A DNA stretch of 48,604 nucleotides from Patescibacteria group bacterium UBA3458 (GCA_002378745.1 DFRR01000005.1:43581-92184); one strand, 5' to 3'; positions 3,064 to 31,838 are shown, numbered from the stretch's first letter. The notes: generated from the letters alone by a model not told the origin. Translations and numbers: made by a program.

Positions 3064-6000
3064 TTAGTCGGTGAAGTTTGGCGTTTGTGCACCAAATATA
3101 CGAAGTGTTCCATTAGCGCTAGTTGCAAGGAAGCTCCACACATCGCACTTGTCGGCAGTGGTGGTTTGCGTTGGTGCTGTGCCTCCTGTCCAACGAATAG
3201 TGGTGCCCCAGGTAATAGCCCCAGCCGTTGAACCGTTTGGACTACAGGTAATGAGGCTGAGCTTTTGCCCGGCAATGTAGCCCGAGAAGTTGATTGTTGC
3301 AGCCGACGTGGTGAGGCGAATGAGCTGCTGGTTACCGTCACGCCAGTCAACCGCAATAGTTCCTGATGTAGTGAGCAACTCTTCTTCAACGGTAATGGCA
3401 CCCCCTGCCGCGATGGCAAGGCTCGTCCATGGTGTTGACGTACCAATACCGATAGCTGTTTCTGCGATGATGTTTCCGTTGCCGCTTGGTGTGCCTGCCG
3501 GACACGAGCCTCCTGAACAGACCCAGAGATTGTCGTCGTTCAAGCGTACGTCGTCACCATAGGCGTCGACGATGAGATCACCGGTTGAGTCTACCTGGAA
3601 TGTTGTATAGCGAGTAGCATCGTACGAAATGATGAACTGTGCATCTGAAACTGTCTCGGTAACTGAGAGCCGTTTTGTTGGTGTAACCACGCCGATTCCA
3701 AAGTCTCCCGATGAGGTTAGCACCGCCTGCGGGGTGCCGTCTACTGCGATATTTGCACCGAAGGTAAGTTTCCCACCGTTTACTCCCATTCCATACGCTA
3801 TACTGCCGTTGTCATATGCAGCAACTTTTATGGTGGTAATATCAGTGCCAAGAGATAGTTTTGCTGACGGATTTGTGGTTCCAATACCCACGTTTCCATC
3901 GTTATCAACTAACAGCCTGTGCTCGTTGTCCGTGTCGTTAAAGAACGAAAGCCCAATGGACGCAGCGCGTACACCCCAGCGATCACCTCCACCAGTGTCA
4001 TAGAGTCCGAGTTGCGGATTATCTCCCTCAATATGAATTCCTTTGTCGGGTGCTGATGTCCATCCACCAAACGGTGAGCTAGTACCTATACCGACATTAC
4101 CGGCATTGGTAATACGCATTCGCTCGTCAAGTGTTGACCCTCCTGAACGAGTAACAAACGTTAGGTCACCCGAATTACTACTTTTCCACTCATTATTAAT
4201 GCTCCATGTGCTAGCACCGGTTGTACGTGTGCGAAGGTAAATACCTGAGTAATTCGCACTATTAGAAGTGTTCCATACCTCAAGACCATGCGAGGTTCCT
4301 GGCTCATACGCAAGTGATGCTGCTGCAGGGTTTGCCTGTGTGTCTGAGTACAATACATCTAACTTCGATTTTGGTGACTCTGTACCAATACCAACTTTTC
4401 CGTCTGCTGCAAGGTAAATAGTTGATGTTCCAACTGCGGTGTTAGTACCCGAAAAGTATGCAATTTGTCCGGTGGTACCGGTGAGTGAGCTACCACCTGA
4501 ACCAAGGTCTGCCCAACTGCCGCCTGAGTTTTTGTACTGCAGTGTCCCAGCATTATCGCGAATACCATAACTTGAGGTGCCTACTGCGGTGCCGAAGTTT
4601 AAATAGCGATCGCTTCCCGAGAGCACCATGTCACCGTATACATCCAACTTCGCAAGTGGCGACGTGGTGCCGATGCCAATGTTTTGTGAGCTGTCTACGG
4701 TGAGAGCAGTTGTTCCTGCAGTGATAAGTGCGAGTTTGTCAGCACCATCACCACCAATACCGGTAGTGCTACTGCTTCGATGTGGCACGAGTGTTGGATT
4801 AGTTAGACTTGAAGCTGCATTCTCGAGCATCCACCCACTAGTATTGGCAGCAAAGATATTTCCATTAAAGACGGTGTATGAACCGGTTCCTTGTGTGTAG
4901 AAACGCGTGCCTCCACCAATAACAAAATTCATGGTACCCCCGTTTGCACTTGAATAGAACATGCCGGTGTCTGTGTCGTCAGTAAACGAGTATGCAGGAC
5001 TTGCACCGCTGCCACTCGCCGCAAGAAATCGCGTTGCGTTTACGTTGCCCGACGCAGTAATCTCCGCTGCTGTAGTTGTTGCAAGCGTGGTGGTACCAGT
5101 CACTGACAGTGTGCCCGTGAAGCTAATCGCGCCACTTGAGGTAATACCAGTGGCTGCGGCGATGGCACCGCTTGAATTCACCTGGAACAAGTCGCCGTTA
5201 CCGACGGTGAGGAGTGCTGCTGGTGAAGTGTCGCCGATACCAAAGTTGTTTGCAGTCACGTAGGTATTGCCTGAGCCATTTGGTGTAAGCGCAATACCGC
5301 CATTGAGGTTTGTTGCTGTAATGGCGTTACCTGATACTGAAAGATTGCCTCCCTGGATACCGTCTTCGAACTCAAGCAAGCTGTTGTCGCTGGTGCTTAT
5401 AACCTTACCGCCGGTTATCTGTATATTGCCCTTAAGCGCGATGATGCCGGTACCGGTTGGATTCAATTCAATATCTCCCGAGCCAGCTGTTTTGAGGTGC
5501 AATGATTGATTTGTATCAGCAGTAACAACGATGTTGCTTGCGTCTTCTTCAATCACCTTCTGTCCATTTATATAGAGTGAACCTGGTCCGATGTATACAT
5601 CTTGCCACTGCAAGCTTGGTGTACCGAGTGAGTACGTATTGTCTGTCGTTGGTACAATCGATCCGGCAATTGAGATACCTCCTGCAAATGTTGATGTTGC
5701 TGTCGACGTACTGATGAATGAGTCTGCTGTTACCGCACCCGCAACGGTAAGTTTTGATGATGGTGTTGTAGTGCCGATACCCACCCGTCCATTAGCCGTA
5801 TCAACAAACAAGTCATCCGTATTTACAGCAAGGTCTCCCGTTACAGTGGTTGTTGCAAATGTTGACGTCCCTGAGACTGCAAGTGTACCGGTAAAGCTAA
5901 TCGCACCACTTGAGGTAATACCAGTGGCTGCGGCGATGGCACCACTTGAGTTCACCTGGAACAAGTCGCCGTTACCTACGGTGAGAAGTGCTGACGGTGA

Positions 6001-9000
6001 GGTGTCGCCGATGCCGACGTTGCCGGCACTAAAGTATGTGCTGCCATCGGTGTTTACTCCCAAGAAGAGTGCTGCATTTGCACCGTTATTGAGTTCGCCC
6101 TGCGGTGCTCCTGTTGCGGTGGTTGATGCATACAAACCTTTATACCCAAAGTAGTATGCGAAACCACCAAAGTTATTAGTGTACCCACGTACTAGTGGAG
6201 CGTAGTTTCCATTGCTCTCAGACAAACTATTGTATGCTGCTCGCCCAAAAAATATTTTGTTATTTGGGTCACGCAACATGTTGTATCCGTTGTTATCAAC
6301 CGCACCCGCAGTGATTAGACCATTTACGTATGCGCTTCCATCTACATATAGCTTATAAGCCCCTGGCGTGGTTCCGATGCCTACGTTACCAGCTGCATCA
6401 ATGATAAACGGTGTACTGTCACTTCCTTGGTCATTCACCACAAAGCTGTTACCACTACCTGTGTTGGTGATTGAGAATACGTTTGAACCGGTGACGTTAA
6501 TGGTTGTCGACGCATCAAGCGTCAGTGCATCTTTAAACTCAGTGAAGTCGAGTGTGTCTGCAGTGACATCACTACCGTTGATAGTGGTGGTGGAGAGGAC
6601 ACCGCTGCCGTTCGTGCGGAGGATACCGCTGGTGAGGCCGCTGAAGGTGATGGTGCCACTTGAAGTGATGCCGGTGAGTGAACCAAGTGTACCTGCAATC
6701 GTTGAGTTGCCAGTGATTGCTGCGCCTCCTCCTGATACGGTGAGGCCGTTTGATGCAATGAGTGCTGTTGCAGTGGTGGTAGCAAGCGTGGTGGTACCAG
6801 TCACTGACAGTGTACCGGTGAAGTTGATTGCTCCACTTGAGGTGATGCCGGTTGCTGCGGCGATTGCACCGCTTGAATTCACTTGGAAGAGGTCGCCGTT
6901 GCCTACGGTGAAGAGTGCTGCTGGTGAAGAGTCGCCGATACCGACGTTGCCGGAGCTTGAAAGTACCAACTGGTTGGTATTTCCTTCTGTAAAGAGAGCT
7001 ATATCACGCAATGTGCCAGTACCATTTGCCTCACTCTGAATTTCGTAACGACTATTCGCAACATCCCAGTTCACGATGAGGCGTTCCCGGTTACCACTAC
7101 CGATGCCACCAAAGCCGTATACGACGAGCCCTGACTCATCTGTGCCATCAGCATCGTTGCTTGCGATTGCAAGGACGGAACCAAGACCTGAGGACTGTCC
7201 GACCAAACCAAACCATCCTGAGCTAGTACCACTCAGAGCGTAATCTTGTGCCGCATTTATATACGTAGTCGAACCTTCAAAAATACTATTCCCGTTTACG
7301 TGCAGTTTTGCACTTGGTGATGTCGTCCCGACGCCTACATTTCCTCCACTTGTTGCAAGGTACGTGTTCCCTGTCGTCGTTAGCTGTATTGCCGTAGTGG
7401 TAGCAAGTGTTGAAGTACCCGTCACTGAAAGTGTGTCAGTGAAGGTAATGGTGCCACTTGAGGTGATACCGGTTGCAGCGGCGATTGCTCCACTGCTGTT
7501 TACCTGGAAGAGGTCACCATTACCTACGGTGAGGAGTGCTGCTGGTGAGGTGTCGCCGATGCCGACGCGTCCGGTGCTCGTATCAACAAACAAGTCATCG
7601 GTGTTCACCGAGAAGTCACCGTCAGTGGCACCGGAGAAGTTTAGATTGAGGTCTGCGTCTGTACCGAAGCCTGCAATGGTACGACCACCGTCAGAAGCAA
7701 TGGTGTCAGTCCAGTATGCACTTGCATTATATGAGAGACGAAGTTGTTCGCTGGCACCGAGTATGTGGAGTTTCGCCGATGGCGACGTGGTGCCGATGCC
7801 AAGCTTCTCTGCAGAAGCGTCCCAAAAGAATTTAGCATTTACTCCCGCCTCCTCGAAGAGACTGAAATCTCCAAGTGCATCCAGTTGCATTCGAGTTGTA
7901 TAAGAGAAACTATCTATGTCCACACTAGAGGGAGCCGACGAAAAGACTAGTCCGAAGTTGCTGGAAGCTCCAGAAGGGTTTGATATGCTCCACGCGCGAG
8001 CAAGGGTAGTGTTTTGGTTAGCAACCAACTCAAGCGAGCTGCCTTGTCCACTAGAGTTTGCTGGTCGCAAATATGCTCCAGACGGTCCAAATCGTGATGC
8101 TACGTATAAGCCCTTCTTTGTAGTAATGGTATTGTCGTTTATCTGGAACGAAAAGTTCGGACTCGCCGTCCCCACACCAACCCGATTGTTGGTTGGATCA
8201 ATGTAGAGGGTGTTTGAATCAAAGTTGAGTGGGTAGCTCATTGCAATGGTGGTGGTTGCATCAAGCGTCAATGCATCTTTAAACTCAGTGAAGTCGAGCG
8301 TGTCTGCAGTGACGTCACTGCCGTTGATGGTGGTGGTTGAAAGGACTCCTGAACCGTTGGTGCGGAGGATACCGCTGGTAAGTGCGCTGAAGGTAATGGT
8401 GCCAGATGAGGTGATGCCGGTGAGAGAGCTGAGTGTACCGGCAATGGTTGAGTTGCCGGTGATTGCAGCACCACCACCTGATACGGTGAGACCGTTTGAG
8501 ACAGTGAGTGCGGTTGCGGTGGTAGTAGCAAGTGTGGTGGTGCCAGAGACTGCGAGTGTGCCGGTGAAGTTGATTGCACCACTTGAGGTGATGCCGGTAG
8601 CTGCGGCGATTGCTCCGCTTGAGTTCACCTGGAACAAGTCACCACTTCCTACAGTGAAGAGTGCTGCTGGTGAGGTGTCGCCGATTCCGACGTTGCCGTT
8701 CGTGCTGAGTAGTATGTCTCCACTTGCGTGATTGTTTGTGATAAGCAAATCTTCACTACCACTGTACCCAATTAAACCATTTGTTCCCGTGTTGTAATTG
8801 AAATCGATTCGAGAAACCGCTGTATTTTGCGCAGAATTACTATCTTGCAAGGTAAGTACGCCACTTGGCCCATATACATGTAGTAAGCTGCTTGGGCTTG
8901 TGGTACCGATCCCGACGTTTCCACTCGAAGTAACATACAAGCGTGCAGCACCATCGGTAATGATACTAACGTCTCCACCACTTCCGCCCACTCCTGCTGT

Positions 9001-12000
9001 TAGTGCCCCAGTACTTGGGATGAATACGGGGGTTGTCGCTGAAGAAGCTGAGTTACTTACCGCTGCCCCATTTTGGGCAGTAAATCGACTAGCAAGGAAC
9101 GTGAAGTAATTGGTGCCAGCAAGCGCGATGCGGAGTTGATCATCAGCACTTTCATAAAAACCAGTGTCACCATCGCCAAATGAGAGCGTCGGTGTAGTAG
9201 CATCATTGTCGAATGTCGTACCAAGTTGCAACAATGACGTCGGTGAGGGATTGTCAATACCAATATTGCCGGAATCAGTGATAATCATTCTCGGACTAGC
9301 AAAACCGTTTGAAACACTATTCGTCTGGGTGTAAAACTCAAGAGAAGTTGGATAATCCAAACTCTGTGACCCCCAGCCACCGCCAGTACCTCGAGCAATG
9401 ATTTTTGCCCCGATCCCGTCAGAGTCGCCTCCATTCACATCCGTGTCGGCAGTGAATAAAATTTGTCCTATGATCTCTTCACTTATGCTTGAGTCTCCGG
9501 TTCTCCGGATAGACAACACTCCACCTGCTGCATTAGCTACATCAACATCGTACAGTGGGTTTGCATTCCCCACACCAACCCTGTTGTTGGTTGGATCGAT
9601 GTACAAAGTATTTGAATCAAAGTTGAGTGGGTAACTCATTGCAACAGTGGTGGTTGCATCAAGTGTGAGGGCGTTTTTGAACTGTGCAAAATCAAGTGAA
9701 TCATTGACGATGTCGAGGGTCACTGCAGCACTTTCAGTACCTGAGTTTGCAACGGTAAAGAATGAGTTACCTGCATCAGCGAGCGTTGCGAGGTAGTTGC
9801 CGGTGGTGTGCGTGCCAAGCGTAATGAGATTGTTGAGTGTGGTTGCGCCGGTACCACCACGAGCCACTGGTAACGTGCCAGTAGTGCCCGCATCAATTGG
9901 AAGCCCTGTTGCGTCAATGAGATTAAATGCTGGGGTTGCATCAGAGCCACCAAGACTGAGTGTTATACCGCCGTATGATACGGTTGAATTTGCGAGTTCT
10001 GCGTTGTCGATTTGTCCGGCTGGAAGCGACACGGTTCCCGTACTTACGGTGAGACCACCATACAAGGTTGTAGTACCAGATACGTATGCGTTACCAGACA
10101 CGGCAAACTTGGCAGATGGTGACGATGTGCCTACACCAATGTTTCCTGAGTGGGTTATGGTAAAGAGTCGAGCTCCTGCTGAACTGTCTGCAACGAGTAC
10201 GGGTGCTGTCTGTCCTGTTTTTCCGACCAACTGGAGCGTTGGGACCGTTGTGGTGCTTGAGTCATTCTGGATGTAGAACGGCTGGTTGATGTCGAAGCGT
10301 TCAGTATCTGAGTCCCAGGCTATAACAGCATTTGGTACCACGGTGCCGCGGAAGAATACGAGGTTTACGTCTTCATCGTCCGAGGTAACGTTGTCGGTGT
10401 TAATGGTAAACGAGTTGTTTGCCGTACCACCGATTGTTGTTGAAGCGGCCGAGATACTGTTTACGTTGATGTTGTCAGCGTAGATTTCATCCCAGAAGTA
10501 TGATGGCGAACCAAGGTCGCGCACCGCGTTTTGGTCTGGAATGATGTCTGAGTTGATTGCGGAGTTGATGGTGAGGGTATCGGTGTTGGTGTTTCCGATA
10601 ACGATAGCTCCACCGTCAACCGTTAGGATGCCGTTAATGGTGGTGGTCGCGAGGTCTGCACTGCCGGTAACGACGAGATTAGTCGTGGTTGCGTTGGTGG
10701 CAGTGAAGTTTGTAAAGGCACCGGTGATTGCAGTGAGAATGTTGCTAAAGAAATTTGTACTGGTTGCGTTGGTAAAGACTGCATCTGTTGCATCGATACT
10801 ATCAACTGACACCGCGCCAATGGTTGTGGTGCCAAGTGCGGTGTCACCAGTTACCACCAAGTTTGTCGTGGTTGCGTTCGTAAGTGTCGCGTTGGTTGCC
10901 GTGAGGTTGGTAAAGATGCCGGTAATTGCGGTAACAAGGTTGCTGTAGAAGTTGGTGCTCGTTGCGTTCATAAAGACTGCGTCGGTGAACGTTGCGTTTG
11001 CACCAAAGAGCGTGGTGGTGGTTGCGTAGCTCGCGATGAGTCGTGTGATGTCTGCATCGGTAATGGTTGCGTCTGTGATGGTAGTCGTCGCAAGTGCGGT
11101 AGTCCCTGTTGCAACCAAATCAGTGGTGGTTGCGTTTGTTGCAACAAGATTCGTCGTTGTAGCGTTGGTTGCGCTAAAGTTTGTAACGCTAGAAGTGACT
11201 GCAGTAAGGAGGTTTGCAAAGAAGTTTGTTGAGGTTGCATTGGTGAATACTGCATCTGTTGCAGACAAGTCAGTTACCGTTGCGTCAGTTGCCACGAGGT
11301 TGGTGGTGGTTGCGTTGGTTGCAGTGAAGTTGGTGAACGCTCCAGTGATTACCGTAAGTGCATTAGTGAAGAAATTGGTGGTTGTGGCGTTCGTGAACGT
11401 TGCATTTGCACCAAAGAGCGTAGTGGTGGTTGCGTACGTGGCAACCAAACGAGTTACATCTGCATCTGTGATGGTAGTCGTCGCAAGTGCGGTACTTCCC
11501 GTAACAACTAAGTTCGTGCTCGTTGCGTTTGTGGCGGTAATATCGGTAACGGTTGCGTTAGTAATGCTTGTTGTCGCAAGTGTTGTAGTGCCTGTTGCAG
11601 TAAGCGTGTCGGTAGTGATGTCAGACGAGGAAAGGTTCGTCGTTGTAGCGTTGGTTGCGACAAGGTTGGTGGTGGTTGCGTTGGTTGCACTGAAGTTTGT
11701 AAACGCACCTGTAATTGCGGTAAGAACGCTGCTGAAGAAATTTGTACTGGTTGCGTTGGTAAGTGTAGCGTTCGTTCCTGAAAGGTTTGTAATGGTCGCA
11801 TCTGTAATTGTTGTGGTCGCAAGCGTCGTCGTACCAGACACGGCGAGGCCACCACCGACGGTGACCACCACGCCGTCATCAATGAGGATGCTGTCTGCAA
11901 GCGCTACGCCGGTTGCGTTGAATTTTGCAATAGTGTTTGCGGTACCTGTTGCCGAAGTAAGTGCACCGAAGCCGTTAATGTGTGCAATGCCAGCACTCAA

Positions 12001-13413
12001 CGGCGTTGTAAGGGTGCCCGTATAGGTCAAATCGTTGGCTACAAGACTGCTAAAGGTTGTCGTGCCAGTAACGGTGAGTGTACCAGCGATAGTGACGTCT
12101 TCAGCAAAAGAAGCGTCATCTGCAACCGTGAGTGACGTCGCCTCAACCGAAGAGTTTCGTATACGTGAATTTGTAATGAGTACGCCGCCCAATGTGTCGA
12201 TACGCTGTGTAAGCGCAATGCTGTGGAAGTTATCACCGATATCCGTAGCATTGTCTGCTCCAACACGCGCGATTTCTTTTCGTAATTCATTTTCTGTTTG
12301 TTGTAACTGTTCGAGTGTAACGCCGCTTTGTACAACGATGCGTTCTGTCTCAACAACACGTTCGATAACCGGCTGATTTTGCACGATGGTCGTGCGCTCA
12401 GGCGCCTGAGTGGTTGTGCCTGGTATGTACACAATCCGTGCCGGTGTTGTGTTGTGTGCAGCACCAGCGTCAGCAACTGCAGTGTTTGTTTCCTGCACAG
12501 CGCGAATTTGTATGTCTACCTGGCCGCGCACATTTCCCGAGCCGATAAGGCCGGTGTTTGTAACAAGTCGGGTTCCAGCGCCGCGGAAGAATGAAATAGC
12601 AGAGTCGTATGAATTCTGAAGCCATTCAATAGCGTTTACTTGAGCAAGTACATTGCGATTGAATTCAGGTAATCGCGGGTTCACGGTAAAGGCATCGAAA
12701 GCAAGGAGCGCTTCTTCAAATACCTCGTCTGCGGTAGCGAGCGTCTGTGGTAGTGCCATTGCTACCTGTACTGAACGATCAAATGCCTGTGCGATGCGAG
12801 CAGGTGCGGCGAGGTACTGCTCGCCACTTATTGCCGTACTTCCAAATACGATTGCAAATGCGGTAAGCAGTGCAACTGTCTTCTGTCCGAATTCACGAAA
12901 TGTATCAGCAGGAACAATTGGTGTGTACGGAATAAGTGCCCGTTGTGCACGTCGCTGATCTTCTTGCTCAGCAAGCACTTTGCGGAAGTAGGTGCCGGTA
13001 ATCGGCGCTTGTGCAAACGTGTATGTGTATGGATCGAAATACGCGTACTCTTGTGCTTGTACTGCATGAGAAGCGACACGCGCTACCGGTTGTGCGACGC
13101 GCACAACAGACTGCGCTGCTGCAGCTGCAACCTTTGGCAATTCTGCTTCTTCGATTTCTTGTTCGTAGTACTCACTCTTTCGCTGCTCTGAGAGTTGTTG
13201 GAGGCGAGCAGCCTTTTCATGTTCCCGAGCAATAACAAATTCCTTCAGTGAGTTTTCTTCAACAAACCAAGAGCGTCCGACACGCTCACAGGTAAGATTT
13301 CCCTCTCGACAGAGTTTTGCAACGTAGTCAGAAGTATAGCCGGCAGTTTTGCCAGCCTCCTGAGAAGAGAAATATATTTGGTTGTTAAATGTTAAGTGTT
13401 TACTCACAATCAA
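3064..13413 (-). CDS. Giant (3449 aa) type-II membrane-anchored surface fibre protein with N-terminal cytoplasmic excisionase/MerR-type HTH
   Basis: Single open frame of 10,350 nt with a TTG start (a GTG lies 2 codons later; there is no nearby ATG). aa 14-58 (IYFSSQEAGKTAGYTSDYVAKLCREGNLTCERVGRSWFVEENSLKEF) form an HTH_17-like module. One TM helix lies at about aa 178-196 (TVALLTAFAIVFGSTAISG). A Thr/Asn repeat tract spans about aa 525-925. About 20 copies of the motif G(N/R)(V/I)G(I/V)G(T/D)xxPxx(K/L)Lx(V/L) occur. Five copies of GIGDTSPAAL(F/L)TVGNGDLFQVNSSGAIAAATGITSSGA occur. Confidence 0.85.
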   Translation of the reverse strand: MIVSKHLTFNNQIYFSSQEAGKTAGYTSDYVAKLCREGNLTCERVGRSWFVEENSLKEFVIAREHEKAARLQQLSEQRKSEYYEQEIEEAELPKVAAAAAQSVVRVAQPVARVASHAVQAQEYAYFDPYTYTFAQAPITGTYFRKVLAEQEDQRRAQRALIPYTPIVPADTFREFGQKTVALLTAFAIVFGSTAISGEQYLAAPARIAQAFDRSVQVAMALPQTLATADEVFEEALLAFDAFTVNPRLPEFNRNVLAQVNAIEWLQNSYDSAISFFRGAGTRLVTNTGLIGSGNVRGQVDIQIRAVQETNTAVADAGAAHNTTPARIVYIPGTTTQAPERTTIVQNQPVIERVVETERIVVQSGVTLEQLQQTENELRKEIARVGADNATDIGDNFHSIALTQRIDTLGGVLITNSRIRNSSVEATSLTVADDASFAEDVTIAGTLTVTGTTTFSSLVANDLTYTGTLTTPLSAGIAHINGFGALTSATGTANTIAKFNATGVALADSILIDDGVVVTVGGGLAVSGTTTLATTTITDATITNLSGTNATLTNATSTNFFSSVLTAITGAFTNFSATNATTTNLVATNATTTNLSSSDITTDTLTATGTTTLATTSITNATVTDITATNATSTNLVVTGSTALATTTITDADVTRLVATYATTTTLFGANATFTNATTTNFFTNALTVITGAFTNFTATNATTTNLVATDATVTDLSATDAVFTNATSTNFFANLLTAVTSSVTNFSATNATTTNLVATNATTTDLVATGTTALATTTITDATITDADITRLIASYATTTTLFGANATFTDAVFMNATSTNFYSNLVTAITGIFTNLTATNATLTNATTTNLVVTGDTALGTTTIGAVSVDSIDATDAVFTNATSTNFFSNILTAITGAFTNFTATNATTTNLVVTGSADLATTTINGILTVDGGAIVIGNTNTDTLTINSAINSDIIPDQNAVRDLGSPSYFWDEIYADNINVNSISAASTTIGGTANNSFTINTDNVTSDDEDVNLVFFRGTVVPNAVIAWDSDTERFDINQPFYIQNDSSTTTVPTLQLVGKTGQTAPVLVADSSAGARLFTITHSGNIGVGTSSPSAKFAVSGNAYVSGTTTLYGGLTVSTGTVSLPAGQIDNAELANSTVSYGGITLSLGGSDATPAFNLIDATGLPIDAGTTGTLPVARGGTGATTLNNLITLGTHTTGNYLATLADAGNSFFTVANSGTESAAVTLDIVNDSLDFAQFKNALTLDATTTVAMSYPLNFDSNTLYIDPTNNRVGVGNANPLYDVDVANAAGGVLSIRRTGDSSISEEIIGQILFTADTDVNGGDSDGIGAKIIARGTGGGWGSQSLDYPTSLEFYTQTNSVSNGFASPRMIITDSGNIGIDNPSPTSLLQLGTTFDNDATTPTLSFGDGDTGFYESADDQLRIALAGTNYFTFLASRFTAQNGAAVSNSASSATTPVFIPSTGALTAGVGGSGGDVSIITDGAARLYVTSSGNVGIGTTSPSSLLHVYGPSGVLTLQDSNSAQNTAVSRIDFNYNTGTNGLIGYSGSEDLLITNNHASGDILLSTNGNVGIGDTSPAALFTVGSGDLFQVNSSGAIAAATGITSSGAINFTGTLAVSGTTTLATTTATALTVSNGLTVSGGGAAITGNSTIAGTLSSLTGITSSGTITFSALTSGILRTNGSGVLSTTTINGSDVTADTLDFTEFKDALTLDATTTIAMSYPLNFDSNTLYIDPTNNRVGVGTASPNFSFQINDNTITTKKGLYVASRFGPSGAYLRPANSSGQGSSLELVANQNTTLARAWSISNPSGASSNFGLVFSSAPSSVDIDSFSYTTRMQLDALGDFSLFEEAGVNAKFFWDASAEKLGIGTTSPSAKLHILGASEQLRLSYNASAYWTDTIASDGGRTIAGFGTDADLNLNFSGATDGDFSVNTDDLFVDTSTGRVGIGDTSPAALLTVGNGDLFQVNSSGAIAAATGITSSGTITFTDTLSVTGTSTLATTTAIQLTTTGNTYLATSGGNVGVGTTSPSAKLHVNGNSIFEGSTTYINAAQDYALSGTSSGWFGLVGQSSGLGSVLAIASNDADGTDESGLVVYGFGGIGSGNRERLIVNWDVANSRYEIQSEANGTGTLRDIALFTEGNTNQLVLSSSGNVGIGDSSPAALFTVGNGDLFQVNSSGAIAAATGITSSGAINFTGTLSVTGTTTLATTTATALIASNGLTVSGGGAAITGNSTIAGTLGSLTGITSSGTITFSGLTSGILRTNGSGVLSTTTINGSDVTADTLDFTEFKDALTLDASTTINVTGSNVFSITNTGSGNSFVVNDQGSDSTPFIIDAAGNVGIGTTPGAYKLYVDGSAYVNGLITAGAVDNNGYNMLRDPNNKIFFGRAAYNSLSESNGNYAPLVRGYTNNFGGFAYYFGYKGLYASTTATGAPQGELNNGANAALFLGVNTDGSTYFSAGNVGIGDTSPSALLTVGNGDLFQVNSSGAIAAATGITSSGAISFTGTLAVSGTSTFATTTVTGDLAVNTDDLFVDTANGRVGIGTTTPSSKLTVAGAVTADSFISTSTATSTFAGGISIAGSIVPTTDNTYSLGTPSLQWQDVYIGPGSLYINGQKVIEEDASNIVVTADTNQSLHLKTAGSGDIELNPTGTGIIALKGNIQITGGKVISTSDNSLLEFEDGIQGGNLSVSGNAITATNLNGGIALTPNGSGNTYVTANNFGIGDTSPAALLTVGNGDLFQVNSSGAIAAATGITSSGAISFTGTLSVTGTTTLATTTAAEITASGNVNATRFLAASGSGASPAYSFTDDTDTGMFYSSANGGTMNFVIGGGTRFYTQGTGSYTVFNGNIFAANTSGWMLENAASSLTNPTLVPHRSSSTTGIGGDGADKLALITAGTTALTVDSSQNIGIGTTSPLAKLDVYGDMVLSGSDRYLNFGTAVGTSSYGIRDNAGTLQYKNSGGSWADLGSGGSSLTGTTGQIAYFSGTNTAVGTSTIYLAADGKVGIGTESPKSKLDVLYSDTQANPAAASLAYEPGTSHGLEVWNTSNSANYSGIYLRTRTTGASTWSINNEWKSSNSGDLTFVTRSGGSTLDERMRITNAGNVGIGTSSPFGGWTSAPDKGIHIEGDNPQLGLYDTGGGDRWGVRAASIGLSFFNDTDNEHRLLVDNDGNVGIGTTNPSAKLSLGTDITTIKVAAYDNGSIAYGMGVNGGKLTFGANIAVDGTPQAVLTSSGDFGIGVVTPTKRLSVTETVSDAQFIISYDATRYTTFQVDSTGDLIVDAYGDDVRLNDDNLWVCSGGSCPAGTPSGNGNIIAETAIGIGTSTPWTSLAIAAGGAITVEEELLTTSGTIAVDWRDGNQQLIRLTTSAATINFSGYIAGQKLSLITCSPNGSTAGAITWGTTIRWTGGTAPTQTTTADKCDVWSFLATSANGTLRIFGAQTPNFTD
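10639..11841 (-). repeat. Thr/Asn-rich degenerate tandem-repeat tract inside the giant CDS (aa ~525-925)
   Basis: Runs such as TNATSTNFFSSVLTAITGAFTNFSATNATTTNLVATNATTTNL are reiterated about five times with variation. The opposite strand shows matching V/A-rich shadow ORFs (10541..10948, 11036..12025). Confidence 0.8.
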
Positions 13414-13617
13414 ATGATTGTTCGGAAACGCGATGTAACTACATATTACTAGCTATTTCGGCAATTACCTACTGCAATTTTGGGGATAAGGTTAGAGAGT
13501 TTTTAGTTACTAGTTTTCAGTTGGCAGAACCGATTGAATCACAACTCGCAGCAGTAAGTGAGCACCTTACAGAGATGCAACGAATACTTCCGTGGGTGCT
13601 GGGTTCGCAGTTTATAG

Positions 13618-13652
13618 TTGTTGATTGATAGAGATCGTAGGCTAAACAAGCT
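13618..13652 (+). repeat. TAG-ending heptad-like block (weaker copy)
   Basis: gcagtttatagttgttgattgatagagatcgtagg lies in the leader upstream of the giant gene. It is related to the 48194 and 22552 blocks. Confidence 0.45.
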
Positions 13653-13744
13653 CTATGCACTAAGAGAAACCATTATATGCCCTTTCATTGGAAACGTGAG
13701 AGTTTTTACTCACTGCTTTTAATTAGAAAGCGTGGGTACTGAGT

Positions 13745-13775
13745 AGACCCAGGATTCCTGAGGAATCCTGGGTCT
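13745..13775. terminator. Perfect 14-bp-stem hairpin downstream of the 374-aa HTH gene
   Basis: agacccaggattcc-tga-ggaatcctgggtct, indexed base by base. It lies about 90 nt past the stop at 13867. On the minus strand it is preceded by gctgatagtttgtag (TAG block) and has no clean U-run. Confidence 0.5.
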
Positions 13776-13790
13776 CTACAAACTATCAGC
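13776..13790 (-). repeat. TAG-heptad block abutting the 13745-13775 hairpin
   Basis: The minus strand reads gctgatagtttgtag. The gatagtttgtag core is identical to 48207-48218. Confidence 0.6.
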
Positions 13791-13866
13791 TATAATATTG
13801 TCACCCAATAACTCTGTTCTGGTCTATCCGAGAAACGCTCTATTAAGCTATTTTAGCCGAGATGTA

Positions 13867-14991
13867 CTACTCAGCAGTGTAAGAAAACTCTGCTCCAGGA
13901 AACACTTCTCCGTACTTTTCGCGAAGTACGTCTATTGTCTCATTAAAAGCTTTTGAATCGATGTGTATTTCCGGAATTCCATAGATATAGGTGAACGCCG
14001 CAGCCCCAGAGGCAATAATTAGTAGTGGCAGTACATACATGATGATCCGAACGTATAAAGCTCTCTGTTTTGGCTCCTCAAAGTGGTATGCTTCTTCCTT
14101 GGCTTCCTTAGATATCGCACTTAGTTTCTGTACTTCCTGTTCCCGAGATATGCTTTGTTTGAGCGACTTATTGCGTACCGCAATCTCGTCTCGGCCAACT
14201 TGTGGCGTTTGTCCGCTCGTGACTGTCGGAATACGTTTTATAACAGGAACTGCCGGTATATCACGAGGTGCATACACTTCAGTTTCTGCTTTTTGTATCA
14301 AAACCTTCTCGCCCAGAGTTTCTGCTGGTGGTATTGATGGCGGCAACTGTCGGGAGAACGTCTCTACCGGCTCTGCAAAGTAACGAACATTGAAATTGAT
14401 GTCTCCTGGTTCGATGTCTGTATGAATCTTCACTCCTATAGAAGCATCCTTGCTCGCCACATTGAGATGTTCTGTGTTTTCCTCACCAGGACGACGAATG
14501 CCACTAGCTTGTGCTTGCACTTGTGCGAGCAGTCCATCGTTATATTTTTTGTGCTTCAATAGTGCAGCTTTGTCGACAAACCATCGGCGACCAACTTTTC
14601 GTGCCTGCACTTCGCCATCTCTCGCCAACTGCCCTACATAATCTTGCGCATACCCGGTAATGTCCGCCGCACGTGACGTCGCAATGTACTCAACCCCATC
14701 ATATTTGAATGTGTCGTCACGAACATTGCCAACCTTCATGCCGTGCGTCGCAACTTTTTTTACTTCTTCCTGCGGTTCGCTTTCAGCTGCGGGCTTCGGT
14801 GTAATGCCGATTCCTGTCTCTTGGTATCTCTTGAGGCTTGCCTCATCGACATACCAGTTGCCAGACACTCTCCGGCATTCCACTTTTTCTTCTCGACAGA
14901 GCTGGCCGATGTAGTCTTTAGAATAGCTCGTGAGCTCAGAGGCTCGGTTTGTCGAGATAAGCTTTTCATCACCCACAAAAAGATCATTCAT
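13867..14991 (-). CDS. Tail-anchored protein with two excisionase/MerR-type HTH modules and a C-terminal TM helix
   Basis: 374 aa. Module 1 is LISTNRASELTSYSKDYIGQLCREEKVECRRVSGNWYVDEASLKRY. Module 2 is IATSRAADITGYAQDYVGQLARDGEVQARKVGRRWFVDKAALLKH. The TM helix is YVRIIMYVLPLLIIASGAAAFTYIYGI, with only about 35 aa after it. Confidence 0.8.
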   Translation of the reverse strand: MNDLFVGDEKLISTNRASELTSYSKDYIGQLCREEKVECRRVSGNWYVDEASLKRYQETGIGITPKPAAESEPQEEVKKVATHGMKVGNVRDDTFKYDGVEYIATSRAADITGYAQDYVGQLARDGEVQARKVGRRWFVDKAALLKHKKYNDGLLAQVQAQASGIRRPGEENTEHLNVASKDASIGVKIHTDIEPGDINFNVRYFAEPVETFSRQLPPSIPPAETLGEKVLIQKAETEVYAPRDIPAVPVIKRIPTVTSGQTPQVGRDEIAVRNKSLKQSISREQEVQKLSAISKEAKEEAYHFEEPKQRALYVRIIMYVLPLLIIASGAAAFTYIYGIPEIHIDSKAFNETIDVLREKYGEVFPGAEFSYTAE

Positions 14992-14997
14992 GAAATG

Positions 14998-15006
14998 ATT
15001 CTACCA
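14998..15006 (-). promoter_or_regulatory. Extended -10 (TGGTAGAAT) 6 nt upstream of ATG; candidate leaderless promoter
   Basis: The minus strand reads atatTGgTAGAATcatttcATG. No Shine-Dalgarno sequence is present. Confidence 0.4.
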
Positions 15007-15071
15007 ATATCTGCCGAGAAAGGGTATCTCGGCTAAAAAACACTGTGGATAGCGTAGCTCGTTTAGACGAG

Positions 15072-17726: not shown

Positions 17727-18038
17727 TTATAAACTAGTGCGATTTTCAGTTTCCTGAAGTTTGCCTAGCATGAGGGCGTAACCGCCTGTTCCCTCTTCCA
17801 TTACGCGCTTTATTCGAGAGATAGTCGCTGAACTCATACCAGTAATGCGCTCAACTTTGCGATAACTTGCTCCGAAATTAAGCATTTTTACAGCCTTCCA
17901 ACGCTTTGCTGCTTCTTCTATTTCCGAATGAGTAAAAAGGTCGCCAAGAAATGCTCGAGCTTCTGCAAGATTGTCGAGCTCGAGTAATGCGAGCATTAAT
18001 TCGTCGGTGTCATCATTTATCCACTTGTGTTTTGTCAT
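17727..18038 (-). CDS. TrpR-like YerC/YecD family protein
   Basis: 103 aa. The ...DLFTHSEIEEAAKRWKAVKMLNFGASYRKVERITGMSSATISRIKR... pattern is typical of the YerC/YecD Trp-repressor-like family. Confidence 0.8.
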   Translation of the reverse strand: MTKHKWINDDTDELMLALLELDNLAEARAFLGDLFTHSEIEEAAKRWKAVKMLNFGASYRKVERITGMSSATISRIKRVMEEGTGGYALMLGKLQETENRTSL

Positions 18039-18072: not shown

Positions 18073-18100
18073 AAGCGCTTGTCTGTGTGGACAAGCGCTT
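18073..18100. terminator. 11-bp-stem hairpin between the DUF360 gene and the yerC-like gene
   Basis: aagcgcttgtc-tgtgtg-gacaagcgctt, flanked by T-rich sequence on both strands. Confidence 0.6.
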
Positions 18101-18125: not shown

Positions 18126-18452
18126 TTAATCTATACGAGAGCCTATTGCGCTGGCAACGGACACTGCAAGGGAGCCTAAGAGGGCCGGCAGGAACCCTGT
18201 CACCGTGAATCCTTCGACAAACGTTGAGAGAAACCAGAAGATTCCAGCATTCAAAAGGAACGCTGACAGCCCAAAAGTAACCAGGTGAATGGGAAGCGTG
18301 AGAATGGTAAACAATGGTTTAATGGTGATGTTTGCTAGTCCGAGCAAAACGGCAACGATGAGTGCTATATAAAGGCTGGTGACCTCAATACCAGGTATCC
18401 ATTGAGCTGCCGCCAAGAGTGCAAGGACAACGAGTGCAAATCGAATAAACAT
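18126..18452 (-). CDS. DUF360 / phage-holin-4_2 family small membrane protein (YvlD-like)
   Basis: 108 aa with 3-4 predicted TM helices. ...LLGLANITIKPLFTILTLPIHLVTFGLSAFLLNA... is typical of PF04020. Confidence 0.75.
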   Translation of the reverse strand: MFIRFALVVLALLAAAQWIPGIEVTSLYIALIVAVLLGLANITIKPLFTILTLPIHLVTFGLSAFLLNAGIFWFLSTFVEGFTVTGFLPALLGSLAVSVASAIGSRID

Positions 18453-25611: not shown

Positions 25612-25619
25612 TACTGCGG

Positions 25620-25625
25620 ATTATA
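25620..25625 (-). promoter_or_regulatory. TATAAT box 8 nt upstream of ATG; candidate leaderless promoter
   Basis: The minus strand reads gcTATAATccgcagtaATG. Confidence 0.4.
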
Positions 25626-25655
25626 GCAAACGGATGTATGGATGCTACCATGGTG

Positions 25656-25661
25656 TATACT
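25656..25661 (+). promoter_or_regulatory. TATACT box 9 nt upstream of the gmd ATG
   Basis: ggtgTATACTaaccaccatATG. It is divergent from the Wzy_C-TPR promoter in a 59-bp spacer. Confidence 0.4.
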
Positions 25662-25670
25662 AACCACCAT

Positions 25671-26729
25671 ATGAAAAAGGCATTGGTAACAGGTATCACG
25701 GGTCAGGACGGTTCATACCTTGCAGAGCTCCTCCTTGAAAAGGGGTACGAAGTGCATGGTGTTCAACGACCATCCAGCTCCATACGCACGGCACGTATCA
25801 ACCACTTATTCAATGACCCGGAGATACACGACCGTAAACTTTTTTTACATCATGGTGACCTTACTGATACAACAAACATTTCAAGCTTGATTCGTGATAT
25901 CGAGCCAGACGAAGTGTACAACCTAGCAGCTCAAAGCCACGTACGTATTTCGTTTGACTTACCGGAGCTGACTGCCGAAACTGACGCTCTCGGCACTCTG
26001 ACAATTCTGGAGTCTATACGCAAACAAGGCTTAACGCACAAAACAAAATTTTATCAGGCTTCGACTTCGGAACTATATGGGAAGGTGCAGGAAATTCCAC
26101 AAACCGAAAATACACCCTTTTATCCCCGCAGTCCGTATGGTGTTGCCAAACTATACAGCTTCTGGATTATTAAAAACTATCGCGAAGCGTACGATATGTA
26201 CGCATGCAATGGCATTCTCTTCAACCATGAAAGCGAACGGCGTGGATACAACTTCGTGACGCGGAAAATCACCATTGGTTTATCTAAGATTAAGCTTGGG
26301 CAACAGACGTTGTTAGAACTTGGAAATCTCGATGCTAAGCGAGATTGGGGGTACGCTAAAGAGTATGTGGAGGCAATGTGGCTGATGCTTCAACAGGAAA
26401 AGCCTGAGGACTTTGTGATTGCAACCGGTCAAACACACAGTGTGCGGGAATTTATTGAAGCAGCCTGTGAGGAGCTCGATATCGAACTTGAGTGGCACGG
26501 TGAAGGAGTTGATGAGATTGGTATCGATAAAAAAACTGGTAAACCAATCATAAAAATCAACCCCCGCTACTTCCGTCCAACAGAGGTTGATGTATTGCTC
26601 GGCGATCCGAGTAAAGCAAAGGAGAAACTTGGGTGGGAAGCAAAGACCAAATTTGCAGAACTCGCCAAACTAATGGTCAAGGCTGATTTTGAATTAATGC
26701 AGAAAACTAACGGTGAGTTTTGGTATTAA
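25671..26729 (+). CDS. gmd: GDP-mannose 4,6-dehydratase
   Basis: [30 protein letters not shown]... with YGVAKLY (YxxxK) and [11 protein letters not shown]. The track ORF start at 25491 was replaced by ATG 25671 because the 60-aa extension is non-homologous and overlaps the divergent gene. Confidence 0.95.
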
Positions 26730-26834
26730 AAGTAAGATCGTCTCGAATCGTTTTTCATCATTTAAGTCTGCGCTTAATAACCACTTCCTACCCCAACTTA
26801 CACTCTATAGCAACGGCACTCTAATCGACTAGTT

Positions 26835-31836: not shown

Positions 31837-31838
31837 AC

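What the first reader, a model, noticed from the sequence alone, without database searches (positions are those of the whole stretch)
13240..14961. Same HTH module used three times in two adjacent membrane-anchored genes
The giant protein carries one copy and the upstream 374-aa protein two copies of a ~45-aa module. The consensus is S-x-x-(E/R)-A-x-x-x-(T/S)-(G/S)-Y-(S/T/A)-x-D-Y-(V/I)-(A/G)-(K/Q)-L-(C/A)-R-(E/D)-(G/E)-x-(V/L)-x-(C/A)-x-(R/K)-V-(G/S)-(R/G)-x-W-(F/Y)-V-(D/E). This is the excisionase/HTH_17 pattern. Both proteins are membrane-tethered: the small one is tail-anchored and the giant one is type II. A membrane-tethered double-HTH protein next to an HTH-headed surface fibre looks like a two-component module, for example a membrane-sequestered regulator or partner of the fibre. 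I am not aware that this has been described.
Basis: partly seen in the sequence, partly recalled or inferred. Interest (0 to 1): 0.7.

Follow-up and report, generated by a model that had tools for sequence, protein, structure and literature searches.

The report
Shared DNA-binding head on two membrane proteins
Two neighbouring genes of an ultra-small (CPR/Kaiserbacteria-type) bacterium, one small membrane protein and one 3,447-residue surface fibre, both begin with the same DNA-binding-type fold on the inner side of the membrane; this pairing is conserved across this bacterial group and I found no description of it, so it hints at a direct physical or regulatory link between the chromosome and the cell-surface fibres.

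Summary
The 374-aa protein carries two copies and the adjacent 3,447-aa protein one copy of a ~47-aa module. Copies are 40-43% identical pairwise, and the window holds no others. The module is a divergent HTH_17 (MerR/excisionase-type winged helix). AlphaFold2 models it at pLDDT >90, and Foldseek returns only DNA-binding relatives: Xis, BldC, RacA, TraN, RdfS. Both proteins are predicted to span the membrane once, with the heads cytoplasmic.

- The order gatB, then small, then HTH-headed large gene holds in 74 of 77 testable loci from different species.
- The fold is a winged helix.

- The pair belongs to a large unnamed family (3,810 representative clusters) built as one or two N-terminal heads, a helix, a disordered tether, one TM helix and an ectodomain of 40 to over 7,000 aa. 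The small protein is its conserved member with almost no ectodomain.
- The "13414-13866 leader" is mostly not a leader.
- The three module classes are ancient paralogues that share one invariant recognition-helix face.

I read the heads as membrane-tethered DNA binders, working like RocS/RicO or like ToxR. DNA binding is inferred, not shown. Verdict: a new variant of a known kind. Interest 0.6.

The parts
13867..14991 (-). Small gene, 374 aa. Layout: two wHTH modules, a helix, a ~145-aa disordered linker, one TM helix and a 37-aa outer tail.
   Evidence: ORF and translation. 193 homologues, with names such as Candidatus Kaiserbacteria and Pacebacteria. AlphaFold2 model.
14824..14964 (-). Module 1 (class m1), residues 10-56: beta-hairpin, helix 14-21, recognition helix 25-33, wing 39-49, helix 50-59.
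   Evidence: Profile hit at 85.7 bits. pLDDT 91-96. Invariant residues A17 Y23 D26 Y27 G29 Q30 L31 R33 W46.
14551..14694 (-). Module 2 (class m2), residues 100-147.
   Evidence: Profile hit at 85.8 bits. Best HTH_17 stretch at residues 108-146. pLDDT 94-98. Invariant residues Y114 D117 Y118 A123 R124 W137.
14503..14571 (-). Long helix directly after module 2 (residues 141-163), carrying the conserved motif HKKxNDxLLAAVQAxSVG.
   Evidence: AlphaFold2 helix H141-163. H147 D152 Q159 G164 are invariant.
14068..14496 (-). Low-confidence, poorly conserved cytoplasmic tether (residues 166-308). It contains the short conserved motifs Y204 and P218.
   Evidence: pLDDT 43-64. Alignments A1 and A2.
13981..14064 (-). 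Transmembrane helix of the small protein (residues 310-337).
   Evidence: AlphaFold2 helix H310-337. Hydrophobicity scan. K/R residues lie on the N-terminal flank.
13870..13980 (-). Short outer tail (residues 338-374) with a helix at 346-360 and a near-invariant Tyr371.
14998..15052 (-). Promoter-like region of the small gene. CTATCCACA lies at 15044-15052. The inverted repeat GCCGAGA-N7-TCTCGGC lies at 15013-15033. The -10-like TAGAAT lies at 14998-15003, only 6 nt before the ATG, so the mRNA is leaderless or nearly so.
   Evidence: Sequence. The same layout occurs in related loci. CCGAGA is enriched upstream of the small gene: 7.9 per kb against 1.3 per kb in other intergenic DNA.
13745..13775 (-). 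Perfect 15-bp hairpin downstream of the small gene. It looks like a terminator but has no T-run.
   Evidence: RNA fold of -28.7 kcal/mol, z-score -5.15.
13443..13489 (-). Promoter-like block of the giant gene: TTATCCCCA (13481-13489), 29 nt, then TAGTAATAT (13443-13451). GTG at 13407 follows 35 nt later.
   Evidence: Sequence. The motif is exact in 47 of 74 related intergenic regions, at a median of 115 nt before the module. TAGTAAAAT-like sequence is present in 35 of 74.
3064..13407 (-). Giant gene, 3,447 aa counted from GTG. Layout: one wHTH head, a long helix, a tether, one TM helix and a ~3,250-aa ectodomain with no Pfam match.
13237..13377 (-). Giant-head module (class g).
   Evidence: Profile hit at 68.3 bits. 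pLDDT 93-98. Foldseek: Pukovnik Xis prob 1.00, TM-score 0.70-0.72, rmsd 1.4-1.5 A; RacA prob 0.97-0.99; BldC TM-score up to 0.79.
13144..13257 (-). 38-residue helix directly after the giant's wHTH (residues 51-88).
   Evidence: AlphaFold2 helix H51-88, pLDDT 93-97 up to about residue 80. Conserved pattern Fl..Qe..k..Rr..L...R..EY.
12826..12903 (-). Transmembrane helix of the giant (residues 169-194).
   Evidence: Conserved TM consensus hK.vAL..A..ltfGtYA.
11608..12825 (-). Conserved base of the ectodomain (to about residue 600). Sequence beyond it is mosaic between species.
   Evidence: BLASTP against 33 downstream giants: 32 match, nearly all over query residues ~10-450/600 at 24-45% identity.

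Best explanation
Architecture. Both genes encode single-pass membrane proteins. Each cytoplasmic N-terminus is a MerR/excisionase-type winged-helix DNA-binding domain, two in the small protein and one in the fibre. Each head is followed by a long helix and a flexible tether that leads to one transmembrane helix.

Proposed mechanism. I propose that the heads hold DNA at the inner face of the membrane.
- The small protein has almost no ectodomain and is conserved across the lineage next to gatB. I read it as the core nucleoid-membrane tether. Its logic matches RocS/RicO/RacA, with a TM helix in place of an amphipathic helix or DivIVA.
- The fibre carries the same head with the same recognition face. 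Its base would therefore dock on the same DNA or nucleoprotein patch. This couples the fibre, and possibly its gene, to the nucleoid.
- The small protein's two heads would supply additional or competing DNA-binding valency.

Shown: domain identity, predicted fold, predicted topology, conserved gene pairing, family breadth, and a conserved recognition-helix face.

Inferred: DNA binding, a shared target, co-assembly, and the physiological outcome.
For: - Fold. Both heads are modelled at pLDDT >90 as beta-hairpin, helix, helix, wing, helix. Every high-probability Foldseek match is a DNA-binding MerR/Xis-type domain. For the small protein these are TraN, a tandem internal dimer of two such domains, plus Xis, BldC, RacA, RdfS and Rv2175c. 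For the giant head they are Xis (prob 1.00, rmsd 1.4 A), RacA-DNA and BldC.
- Charge. Modules are net positive: +1.6, +2.7 and +3.6 for classes m1, m2 and g.
- Recognition face. The invariant residues D26, G29, Q30 and R33 (D117, G120, Q121, R124 in module 2; D27, A30, K/R31, R34 in giants) sit at positions i, i+3, i+4 and i+7 of the second helix. That places them on one exposed face. This face is kept in all three paralogue classes across 80 species, although the classes themselves are old: within-class identity is 0.48-0.62 against 0.37-0.46 between classes. A single common ligand would explain this. Diverged regulons would not.
- Pairing and context. The order gatB, small, HTH-headed giant holds in 74 of 77 testable loci, and gatB lies directly upstream in 67 of 81. 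The neighbours are housekeeping genes: obg, secA, gatB.
- Generic anchor module. The same head plus TM sits on ectodomains of 40 to 7,214 aa and on extra giants in some loci.
- Precedent. The RocS/RicO/RacA family has an N-terminal MerR-type wHTH, a coiled coil and a membrane anchor, and it tethers chromosomal origins to the membrane. The RocS amphipathic helix can be replaced by a TM domain (bioRxiv 10.64898/2026.03.06.710092). Both proteins here have a long helix right after the wHTH.
Against: - No experiment and no direct computation here shows DNA binding.
- An invariant Asp at the centre of a recognition helix is unusual for a DNA reader.
- The invariant face would equally fit a conserved protein partner.
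- The window shows no origin-proximal features: no dnaA and no cluster of DnaA boxes.
- The candidate DNA sites I found are not specific to this pair.
- The relative position of the two heads in the small protein is undefined (pTM 0.36).
- No sequence-level similarity to RacA, RocS or RicO was detected. The PDB profile search returned nothing relevant.
- Conserved adjacency in reduced CPR genomes can persist without functional coupling.
Confidence: 0.45

Rival explanations
1. ToxR/CadC/VtrA-like one-component transmembrane signalling. The fibre is a contact or ligand sensor, and its cytoplasmic head switches transcription directly. The small protein is the co-component: a decoy, competitor or co-activator at the same operators, possibly autoregulated.
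For: - Same topology as ToxR-like receptors: an N-terminal cytoplasmic winged helix, a flexible linker, one TM helix and an outer domain. For the family, see PMC5430869 and PMC7496328.
- ToxR/ToxS and VtrA/VtrC are adjacent-gene 'co-component' pairs (PMC9214523).
- CCGAGA/TCTCGG repeats sit between the upstream element and the -10 of the small gene in the window. They are enriched sixfold upstream of the small gene, in 54 of 81 loci. That is an operator-like position.
- The ectodomain is mosaic and fast-evolving while the head is fixed.
Against: - All heads, including those on extra giants in the same locus, keep the same recognition face. Distinct sensors would therefore all address the same sites.
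- The small protein has almost no sensor domain.
- The CCGAGA palindromes also occur at other gene ends and may be terminator-like hairpins of the upstream gatB.
- The DNA-binding domain is not OmpR-type.
Confidence: 0.3
2. The winged-helix heads do not bind DNA. They are protein-protein modules, as the RodZ HTH binds MreB. They would dock the fibre bases and the small protein to a conserved cytoplasmic partner or to each other, for positioning or assembly.
For: - A strictly invariant surface stripe that includes an acidic residue, kept in all paralogue classes, is typical of a conserved protein interface.
- RodZ gives a precedent for an HTH, TM, outer-domain layout with a non-DNA role. This rests on my own knowledge and was not tested here.
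Against: - All close structural relatives bind DNA.
- The modules are net positive, and the wing keeps the G-R-x-W signature of HTH_17.
- No RodZ-type (XRE) HTH or DUF4115 was detected.
Confidence: 0.13
3. The two genes are merely adjacent paralogues, a legacy of tandem duplication or domain shuffling. They share an anchoring head but have no functional interplay.
For: - They belong to one family with the same head-TM plan.
- They appear to have separate promoters, with a strong hairpin between them.
- Gene order around them is conserved in general, for example secA, FMN_red, obg, gatB.
Against: - Adjacency and orientation hold in 74 of 77 loci, although small-protein identity falls to about 27-30% and the giant's distal part turns over.
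- The module classes are ancient, not recent copies.
Confidence: 0.1
4. The modules are remnants of a prophage or integrative-element excisionase.
For: Weak sub-threshold hit to TIGR01764 'excise'. Xis is a top structural match.
Against: - No tRNA gene was found and no integrase family appeared in the Pfam scans.
- The modules are fused to TM proteins.
- The locus is a conserved housekeeping neighbourhood in 80 species.
Confidence: 0.02

Closest known systems
RocS / RicO / RacA chromosome-anchoring proteins (Firmicutes)
   Same: An N-terminal MerR-type winged helix is followed by a long helix or coiled coil and a C-terminal membrane attachment, bridging DNA and membrane. RacA is a high-probability structural match for both heads. 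The RocS amphipathic helix can be swapped for a TM domain.
   Different: - No sequence-level relationship was detected.
- The anchor here is a true TM helix plus a short outer tail.
- The small protein has two heads in tandem.
- A ~145-aa disordered tether replaces most of the coiled coil.
- The same head also sits on giant surface proteins.
- Neither DNA binding nor an origin association is shown.
ToxR-like transmembrane transcription factors with co-components (ToxR/ToxS, TcpP/TcpH, CadC, VtrA/VtrC)
   Same: Single-pass topology with an N-terminal cytoplasmic winged helix and an outer domain. The partner gene is adjacent. A membrane-bound transcription factor can hold its target locus at the membrane, the 'transertion' model (PMC9977878, PMC9214523, PMC5430869).
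   Different: - The DNA-binding domain is HTH_17 (MerR/Xis type), not OmpR/PhoB type.
- The ectodomain is a fibre of several thousand residues, or nearly absent.
- The partner carries DNA-binding heads itself, unlike ToxS or VtrC.
TraN of plasmid pIP501 (PDB 4pm3, 4p0z)
   Same: Two excisionase/MerR-like winged-helix units in one polypeptide, binding double-stranded DNA. It is the top Foldseek match for the small protein, prob 0.93-0.97 (PMC6158623).
   Different: TraN is a compact, cytosolic internal dimer of about 120 aa. Here the two units are separated by a ~40-aa low-confidence linker and tied to the membrane. The alignment rmsd is poor (about 9 A) because the relative domain placement differs or is undefined.
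Excisionase / BldC-type small wHTH proteins (Pfam HTH_17, TIGR01764)
   Same: Same fold and sequence family. These proteins often oligomerise head-to-tail on repeated DNA sites, which would suit heads contributed by two different proteins.
   Different: Those are small soluble proteins of mobile elements or developmental regulators. Here the domain is the N-terminal head of chromosomal membrane proteins, with its own conserved signature GY(S/A)QDY(I/V)GQL(A/C)R.
RodZ
   Same: Layout of a cytoplasmic HTH, a linker, one TM helix and an outer domain.
   Different: The RodZ HTH is XRE-type and binds MreB. No such domain or DUF4115 is detected here. This comparison rests on my own knowledge of RodZ.

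Membership tests
Pfam HTH_17 (PF12728) / MerR-excisionase winged-helix superfamily | Sequence match at or above the curated Pfam cut-off (27 bits). | tested here: met
   The small protein scores 36.5 bits, E = 6e-9, with two stretches. Homologues carry precomputed PF12728.
Pfam HTH_17 (PF12728) / MerR-excisionase winged-helix superfamily | The same criterion applied to the giant's head. | tested here: inconclusive
   Only 14.8 bits, E = 0.036, below the cut-off. It is nevertheless homologous to the small protein's modules (E = 2e-14; 68 bits to the module profile). Membership therefore follows by transitivity and by fold.
Pfam HTH_17 (PF12728) / MerR-excisionase winged-helix superfamily | Fold: helix-turn-helix followed by a beta-hairpin wing. 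| tested here: met
   AlphaFold2 at pLDDT >90. Foldseek: Xis rmsd 1.4-1.5 A; BldC TM-score 0.74-0.79.
Excisionase (TIGR01764) as a recombination directionality factor | Score above the NCBIfam cut-off (28.8 bits) and association with an integrase or mobile element. | tested here: not met
   25.3 and 15.3 bits. No integrase family or tRNA gene appeared in the scans; the context is conserved housekeeping genes.
ToxR-like transmembrane transcription factors | OmpR/PhoB-type winged-helix DNA-binding domain (Trans_reg_C). | tested here: not met
   No such Pfam hit; the domain is HTH_17.
ToxR-like transmembrane transcription factors | Single-pass topology: cytoplasmic N-terminal DNA-binding domain, one TM helix, outer domain. 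| tested here: met
   Predicted from hydrophobicity and AlphaFold2. This is a prediction only.
ToxR-like transmembrane transcription factors | Sequence-specific promoter binding and transcriptional activation. | not testable with these tools
   There are only candidate sites, CCGAGA repeats and TTATCCMCA, and neither is specific to the pair.
RacA/RocS/RicO chromosome anchors | N-terminal MerR-type wHTH followed by a self-associating helix or coiled coil. | tested here: inconclusive
   The wHTH matches RacA structurally, prob 0.97-0.99, TM-score about 0.6. Long helices follow the heads: residues 51-88 in the giant and 141-163 in the small protein. Oligomerisation was not tested, and no sequence homology was detected.
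RacA/RocS/RicO chromosome anchors | Membrane attachment through a C-terminal amphipathic helix or DivIVA. | tested here: not met
   The attachment here is an integral TM helix. It is functionally analogous but not the same feature.
RacA/RocS/RicO chromosome anchors | Binding to origin-proximal sites and a role in chromosome segregation. | not testable with these tools
   No dnaA or oriC features in the window. No experimental data.
RodZ | XRE-type HTH and C-terminal DUF4115. | tested here: not met
   Neither is detected.

The most novel reading that the evidence does not exclude
In these ultra-small bacteria, giant host-attachment fibres are wired to the chromosome within a single polypeptide. 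The first ~90 residues made by the ribosome are a DNA-binding head. It grips DNA while the rest of the 10-kb message is still being translated and exported. Gene, nucleoid and fibre base are thus held together at one membrane site, in the manner of transertion. Afterwards the head could relay contact or tension from the fibre to DNA. The neighbouring double-headed protein, which has almost no ectodomain, would set how many such sites exist by co-assembling on the same DNA sites or competing for them. This would be a new class of surface-to-nucleoid coupling, specific to CPR bacteria.
Probability: 0.2. Interest if true: 0.85.

Novelty: new variant of a known kind. Interest (0 to 1): 0.6.

Why it matters
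CPR/Patescibacteria live attached to host cells. They carry many giant surface proteins of unknown function and few recognisable regulators.

This family places a DNA-binding fold directly on the cytoplasmic end of such fibres. A lineage-wide double-headed companion is encoded next door. It spans at least 473 stretches in species-representative genomes and 3,810 protein clusters. The family could explain any of three things: how these cells position their attachment organelles, how they organise or segregate a chromosome with a minimal toolkit, or how they sense host contact without two-component systems.

The finding also gives concrete reagents for testing this: two soluble head constructs, two defined promoters and two candidate DNA motifs. 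If DNA binding is confirmed, it would extend the principle of a DNA-binding domain joined to a membrane anchor (ToxR-like factors, RocS/RicO) to a new domain type and to giant adhesin-like proteins.

Tried and rejected
- **Word-index search with the giant's first 213 residues.** It returned nothing, not even the protein itself. The exhaustive phmmer search later recovered it and 3,810 relatives, so the earlier zero reflects a limit of that tool.
- **Known RNA in the 450-nt spacer.** Rfam found nothing at gathering thresholds anywhere in the window.
- **Sequence-level relatives of known structure.** A profile of 107 small-protein homologues found none. The only hit was a designed coiled coil matching the TM region, E = 0.2.
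- **TTATCC(A/C)CA as the operator of the heads.** The motif is identical to the DnaA-box consensus. I rejected it as specific to the pair. It occurs 139 times in 1.11 Mb of related loci, with about 17 expected, always co-oriented with a downstream gene, and more than half of the copies precede unrelated genes. It is a general promoter-proximal element of the lineage.
- **CCGAGA(T)/(A)TCTCGG as a private operator.** It is enriched upstream of the small gene. However, the palindromic form also occurs in other intergenic regions and right after gatB and obg. It may be a gene-end hairpin. I leave this open.
- **Origin-proximal location, as for RacA or RicO sites.** No dnaA is present in the window. 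The cumulative GC-skew maximum near 13 kb is driven by the giant gene's own composition.
- **Prophage or excisionase origin.** Rejected on context.
- **Pfam domains in the giant's ectodomain.** None, even at E <= 1. Relatives carry Peptidase_S74 and Ig-like domains, or RCC1, WD40 and Laminin_G domains.
- **Not attempted.** Complex prediction of the small protein with the giant head; the tool folds single chains only.

Full report
**1. What is in the sequence**

The region holds two co-oriented genes on the minus strand, downstream of gatB, obg, an FMN reductase and secA.
- The small gene (13867-14991) encodes 374 aa.
- The giant ORF (3064-13413) most likely starts at GTG 13407. That gives 3,447 aa, matching the database protein P0121 and the start called in a relative.

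Pairwise BLASTP gives 40-43% identity without gaps, E = 2e-14 to 3e-18. A profile of 61 modules, 60 of them from homologues, finds exactly these three copies in all six frames of the 48.6-kb window and nothing else.

**2. What the module is**

- Pfam HTH_17 matches the small protein above its curated cut-off (36.5 bits, two stretches). It matches the giant's head only weakly at 14.8 bits. TIGR01764 'excise' is below cut-off for both.
- AlphaFold2, given a 107-sequence alignment, models both small-protein modules at pLDDT 91-98. The fold is a beta-hairpin, two helices, a beta-hairpin wing and a further helix. A 23-residue helix follows module 2. Then come about 145 low-confidence residues, a TM helix (310-337) and a short helical tail.
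- The giant's first 600 residues, with a 30-sequence alignment, show the same head at pLDDT 93-98. It is followed by a 38-residue helix, a disordered stretch, a further helix and a TM helix at 169-194.
- Foldseek against the PDB returns only DNA-binding MerR/Xis-type domains with high probability. For the small protein the top hit is TraN of pIP501, itself a tandem of two such domains. Pukovnik Xis, BldC, RacA, RdfS and Rv2175c follow. For the giant head the hits are Xis (prob 1.00, rmsd 1.4-1.5 A, 26% identity), RacA-DNA, TraN and BldC.

**3. Topology**

Neither protein has an N-terminal hydrophobic signal. Each has one strongly hydrophobic helix, with K/R residues on its N-terminal flank. 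I infer that the heads are cytoplasmic. The small protein is C-terminally anchored but keeps a conserved 37-residue outer tail with a near-invariant Tyr371.

**4. Conservation and synteny**

- The small protein has 193 detectable homologues in the 90%-clustered database. All are 290-390 aa. Names, where given, are Candidatus Kaiserbacteria, Pacebacteria or Patescibacteria, and 'hypothetical' or 'helix-turn-helix domain-containing'.
- A scan of one genome per GTDB species found 473 stretches encoding a relative. The 80 best loci were fetched.
- In 74 of 77 loci with enough downstream sequence, the next same-strand ORF within 1.5 kb begins with the module and has a TM helix about 130-190 residues later. 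gatB lies directly upstream in 67 of 81 loci.
- Most downstream ORFs run off the contig. Complete ones reach 3,462 codons, and truncated ones exceed 3,400.
- In two long contigs the downstream genes are 5,970 and 5,118 aa. One carries Peptidase_S74 and Ig-like domains, the other RCC1, WD40 and Laminin_G domains.
- The first ~450-600 residues of the downstream protein are conserved in 32 of 33 long examples. The remainder is mosaic.

**5. The pair is part of a larger family**

An exhaustive phmmer search with the giant's first 300 residues found 3,810 representative clusters at E <= 1e-3, of which 495 are at E <= 1e-10. Among the best 150:
- the module always sits at the extreme N-terminus, with a median start at residue 10;
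- 127 have a TM helix about 133 residues after the last module;
- 25 exceed 1,000 aa, up to 7,214 aa, and 9 of those have two modules;
- 57 are of the small type: two modules, a TM helix, 250-450 aa.

Some loci carry extra HTH-headed giants. They lie upstream on the other strand in L024, L040 and L072, and in tandem in L018 and L052. L002 and L053 instead carry an extra short module-bearing ORF (166 and 85 aa) ahead of the large one. The general plan is one or two heads, a helix, a tether, one TM helix and an ectodomain of any length. The small protein is the member with almost no ectodomain.

**6. The three module classes are old paralogues with one shared face**

Across 81 loci, identity within a class (m1 0.59, m2 0.62, giant 0.48) exceeds identity between classes (0.37-0.46), even within one locus. 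Recent copying or gene conversion is therefore excluded.

Yet D26, G29, Q30 and R33 of module 1 are invariant or nearly so in all classes. The equivalents are D117, G120, Q121, R124 in module 2 and D27, A30, K/R31, R34 in giants. These residues occupy positions i, i+3, i+4 and i+7 of the second helix of the HTH (H25-33). They thus form one exposed stripe, which is where MerR/Xis-type domains face DNA. That last point is established knowledge of the fold, not tested here. Modules are net positive. All heads most likely bind the same ligand.

**7. Regulatory surroundings**

- The giant's start is preceded by a block conserved across the loci: TTATCC(A/C)CA, 29 nt, (C)CGAAATA-n-C-TAGTAAAAT. In the window this lies at 13443-13489, 35 nt before GTG.
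- The small gene has CTATCCACA (15044-15052), 40 nt, then TAGAAT only 6 nt before its ATG. Relatives show the same near-leaderless layout.
- Between the two genes lies a perfect 15-bp hairpin, -28.7 kcal/mol, z-score -5.15.

I infer two separate transcription units. Most of 13414-13866 is then the 3' flank of the small gene plus spacer, not a leader of the giant.

TTATCCACA equals the DnaA-box consensus. It is a general, gene-oriented promoter-proximal element in this lineage, with 139 copies against about 17 expected, and many precede unrelated genes.

CCGAGA(T)/(A)TCTCGG repeats are enriched about sixfold upstream of the small gene, in 54 of 81 loci, and about twofold just after it. In the window they form GCCGAGA-N7-TCTCGGC between the upstream element and the -10. 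However, the palindromic form also occurs at other gene ends. It may be an operator or a gene-end hairpin.

**8. Mechanism**

I commit to membrane-tethered DNA binding.

My preferred version (0.45) is a nucleoid-membrane tether with the logic of RocS/RicO/RacA. Those proteins have an N-terminal MerR-type winged helix, a coiled coil and a membrane anchor, and they tether chromosomal origins to the membrane. The RocS amphipathic helix can be replaced by a TM domain, and one RicO site lies upstream of ricO itself (bioRxiv 10.64898/2026.03.06.710092). Four observations fit:
- the small protein's lineage-wide, housekeeping-type conservation;
- the long helix after each head;
- use of the same head on many different ectodomains;
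- the invariant recognition face.

The fibre would dock on the same DNA patch through its own head.

The main rival (0.30) is ToxR/CadC/VtrA-like one-component signalling with an adjacent co-component (PMC9214523, PMC5430869, PMC7496328). A membrane-bound factor capturing its locus for transertion (PMC9977878) is a related idea.

Lesser rivals are a protein-binding head in the manner of RodZ (0.13), unlinked paralogues (0.10) and a mobile-element remnant (0.02).

One further inference: in cells this small, the whole nucleoid lies within reach of a 50-150-residue tether. Membrane-tethered DNA binding would therefore cost little.

**9. Comparison and novelty**

The domain is a divergent member of HTH_17. 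The small protein meets the curated cut-off. The giant head qualifies only through homology to the small protein's modules and through fold.

The system is not a member of any of these families:
- ToxR-like: the DNA-binding domain is of the wrong type.
- RacA/RocS/RicO: no sequence relationship, and a TM helix rather than an amphipathic helix.
- RodZ: no XRE-type HTH or DUF4115.
- Excisionases: no mobile element.

It works most like the first two. Seven full-text searches found no description of HTH_17-headed membrane proteins or giant proteins in CPR, and database names are uninformative.

I rate it a new variant of a known kind: a DNA-binding domain joined to a membrane anchor, here with a new domain type, a tandem-headed companion and giant ectodomains. 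Interest is 0.6. The finding is lineage-wide and directly testable, but its function is so far only inferred.

Noticed in passing
window 13481-13489 (-), 15044-15052 (-), 18086-18094 (-); loci L001-L082: TTATCC(A/C)CA, identical to the DnaA-box consensus, is a strand-oriented promoter-proximal element in this lineage. There are 139 exact copies in 1.11 Mb, with about 17 expected. All examined copies point towards a downstream gene, 32-41 nt before a -10-like hexamer. In the window, exact or one-mismatch copies precede the giant, the small gene and the Trp-repressor-like gene. Whether DnaA, a sigma factor or another protein reads it is unknown.
   Followed up: partly
window 15013-15033, 13857-13863, 13828-13833; related loci: (A)TCTCGG / CCGAGA(T) repeats, often arranged as TCTCGG-N3-4-CCGAGA palindromes, are concentrated around the small gene: 7.9 per kb upstream against 1.3 per kb in other intergenic DNA. 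They also occur after gatB and obg and upstream of extra HTH-headed giants (L024 6575, L037 1751, L052 19508). They could be operators or conserved gene-end RNA hairpins.
   Followed up: partly
window 14991-15003: The -10-like TAGAAT of the small gene ends 6 nt before the ATG. Relatives show TATACT, then 7-8 nt, then ATG. This suggests a leaderless or nearly leaderless mRNA.
   Followed up: partly
window 14896 and 14875 (small C32, C39); 13309 and 13288 (giant C33, C40): Module 1 and the giant head in this clade carry a Cys pair (C-x6-C). Module 2, and module 1 of most other lineages, have Ala/Ala or Ala/Ser at the same two columns. The two positions co-vary, so they probably pack together. 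A redox or metal role is not excluded.
   Followed up: no
L002 11181-11681: One relative has an extra 166-aa gene (one divergent module plus a TM helix) inserted between the small gene and its 5,118-aa giant. Other loci have giants with two heads: L018, L037, L052, L067, L073, L081, L082.
   Followed up: partly
loci L003-L082: Most contigs end inside the downstream giant gene, so public assemblies systematically truncate these genes. The giants' distal parts are mosaic between species. Relatives carry Peptidase_S74 with Ig-like domains, or RCC1, WD40 and Laminin_G domains, whereas the window's giant has no Pfam hit at all.
   Followed up: partly
window 10001-12000: GC skew is very strong (+0.245 on the plus strand) inside the giant gene. 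This produces the cumulative-skew maximum near 13 kb. It reflects the gene's biased composition, not a replication landmark.
   Followed up: no
window 45184-46470 (-) and 46473-48152 (-): Two adjacent genes sit at the far end of the window. One encodes a ComEA-like HHH_3 domain fused to PKD domains. The other matches TraG-D_C (a VirD4/TraD-like coupling-protein region). They may form a DNA-uptake or transfer module.
   Followed up: no
window 25491-45187: A ~20-kb surface-polysaccharide biosynthesis cluster lies beyond the Wzy_C-TPR gene (23398-25611). It holds GDP-mannose dehydratase and epimerases, a flippase, aminotransferases and GT2, GT4, GT10 and GT11 glycosyltransferases.
   Followed up: no
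window 17727-18038 (-) and 18126-18452 (-): A Trp-repressor-family protein (103 aa) and a Phage_holin_4_2-family membrane protein (108 aa) are conserved members of the same neighbourhood in relatives. The former is another candidate reader of the local DNA motifs.
   Followed up: no
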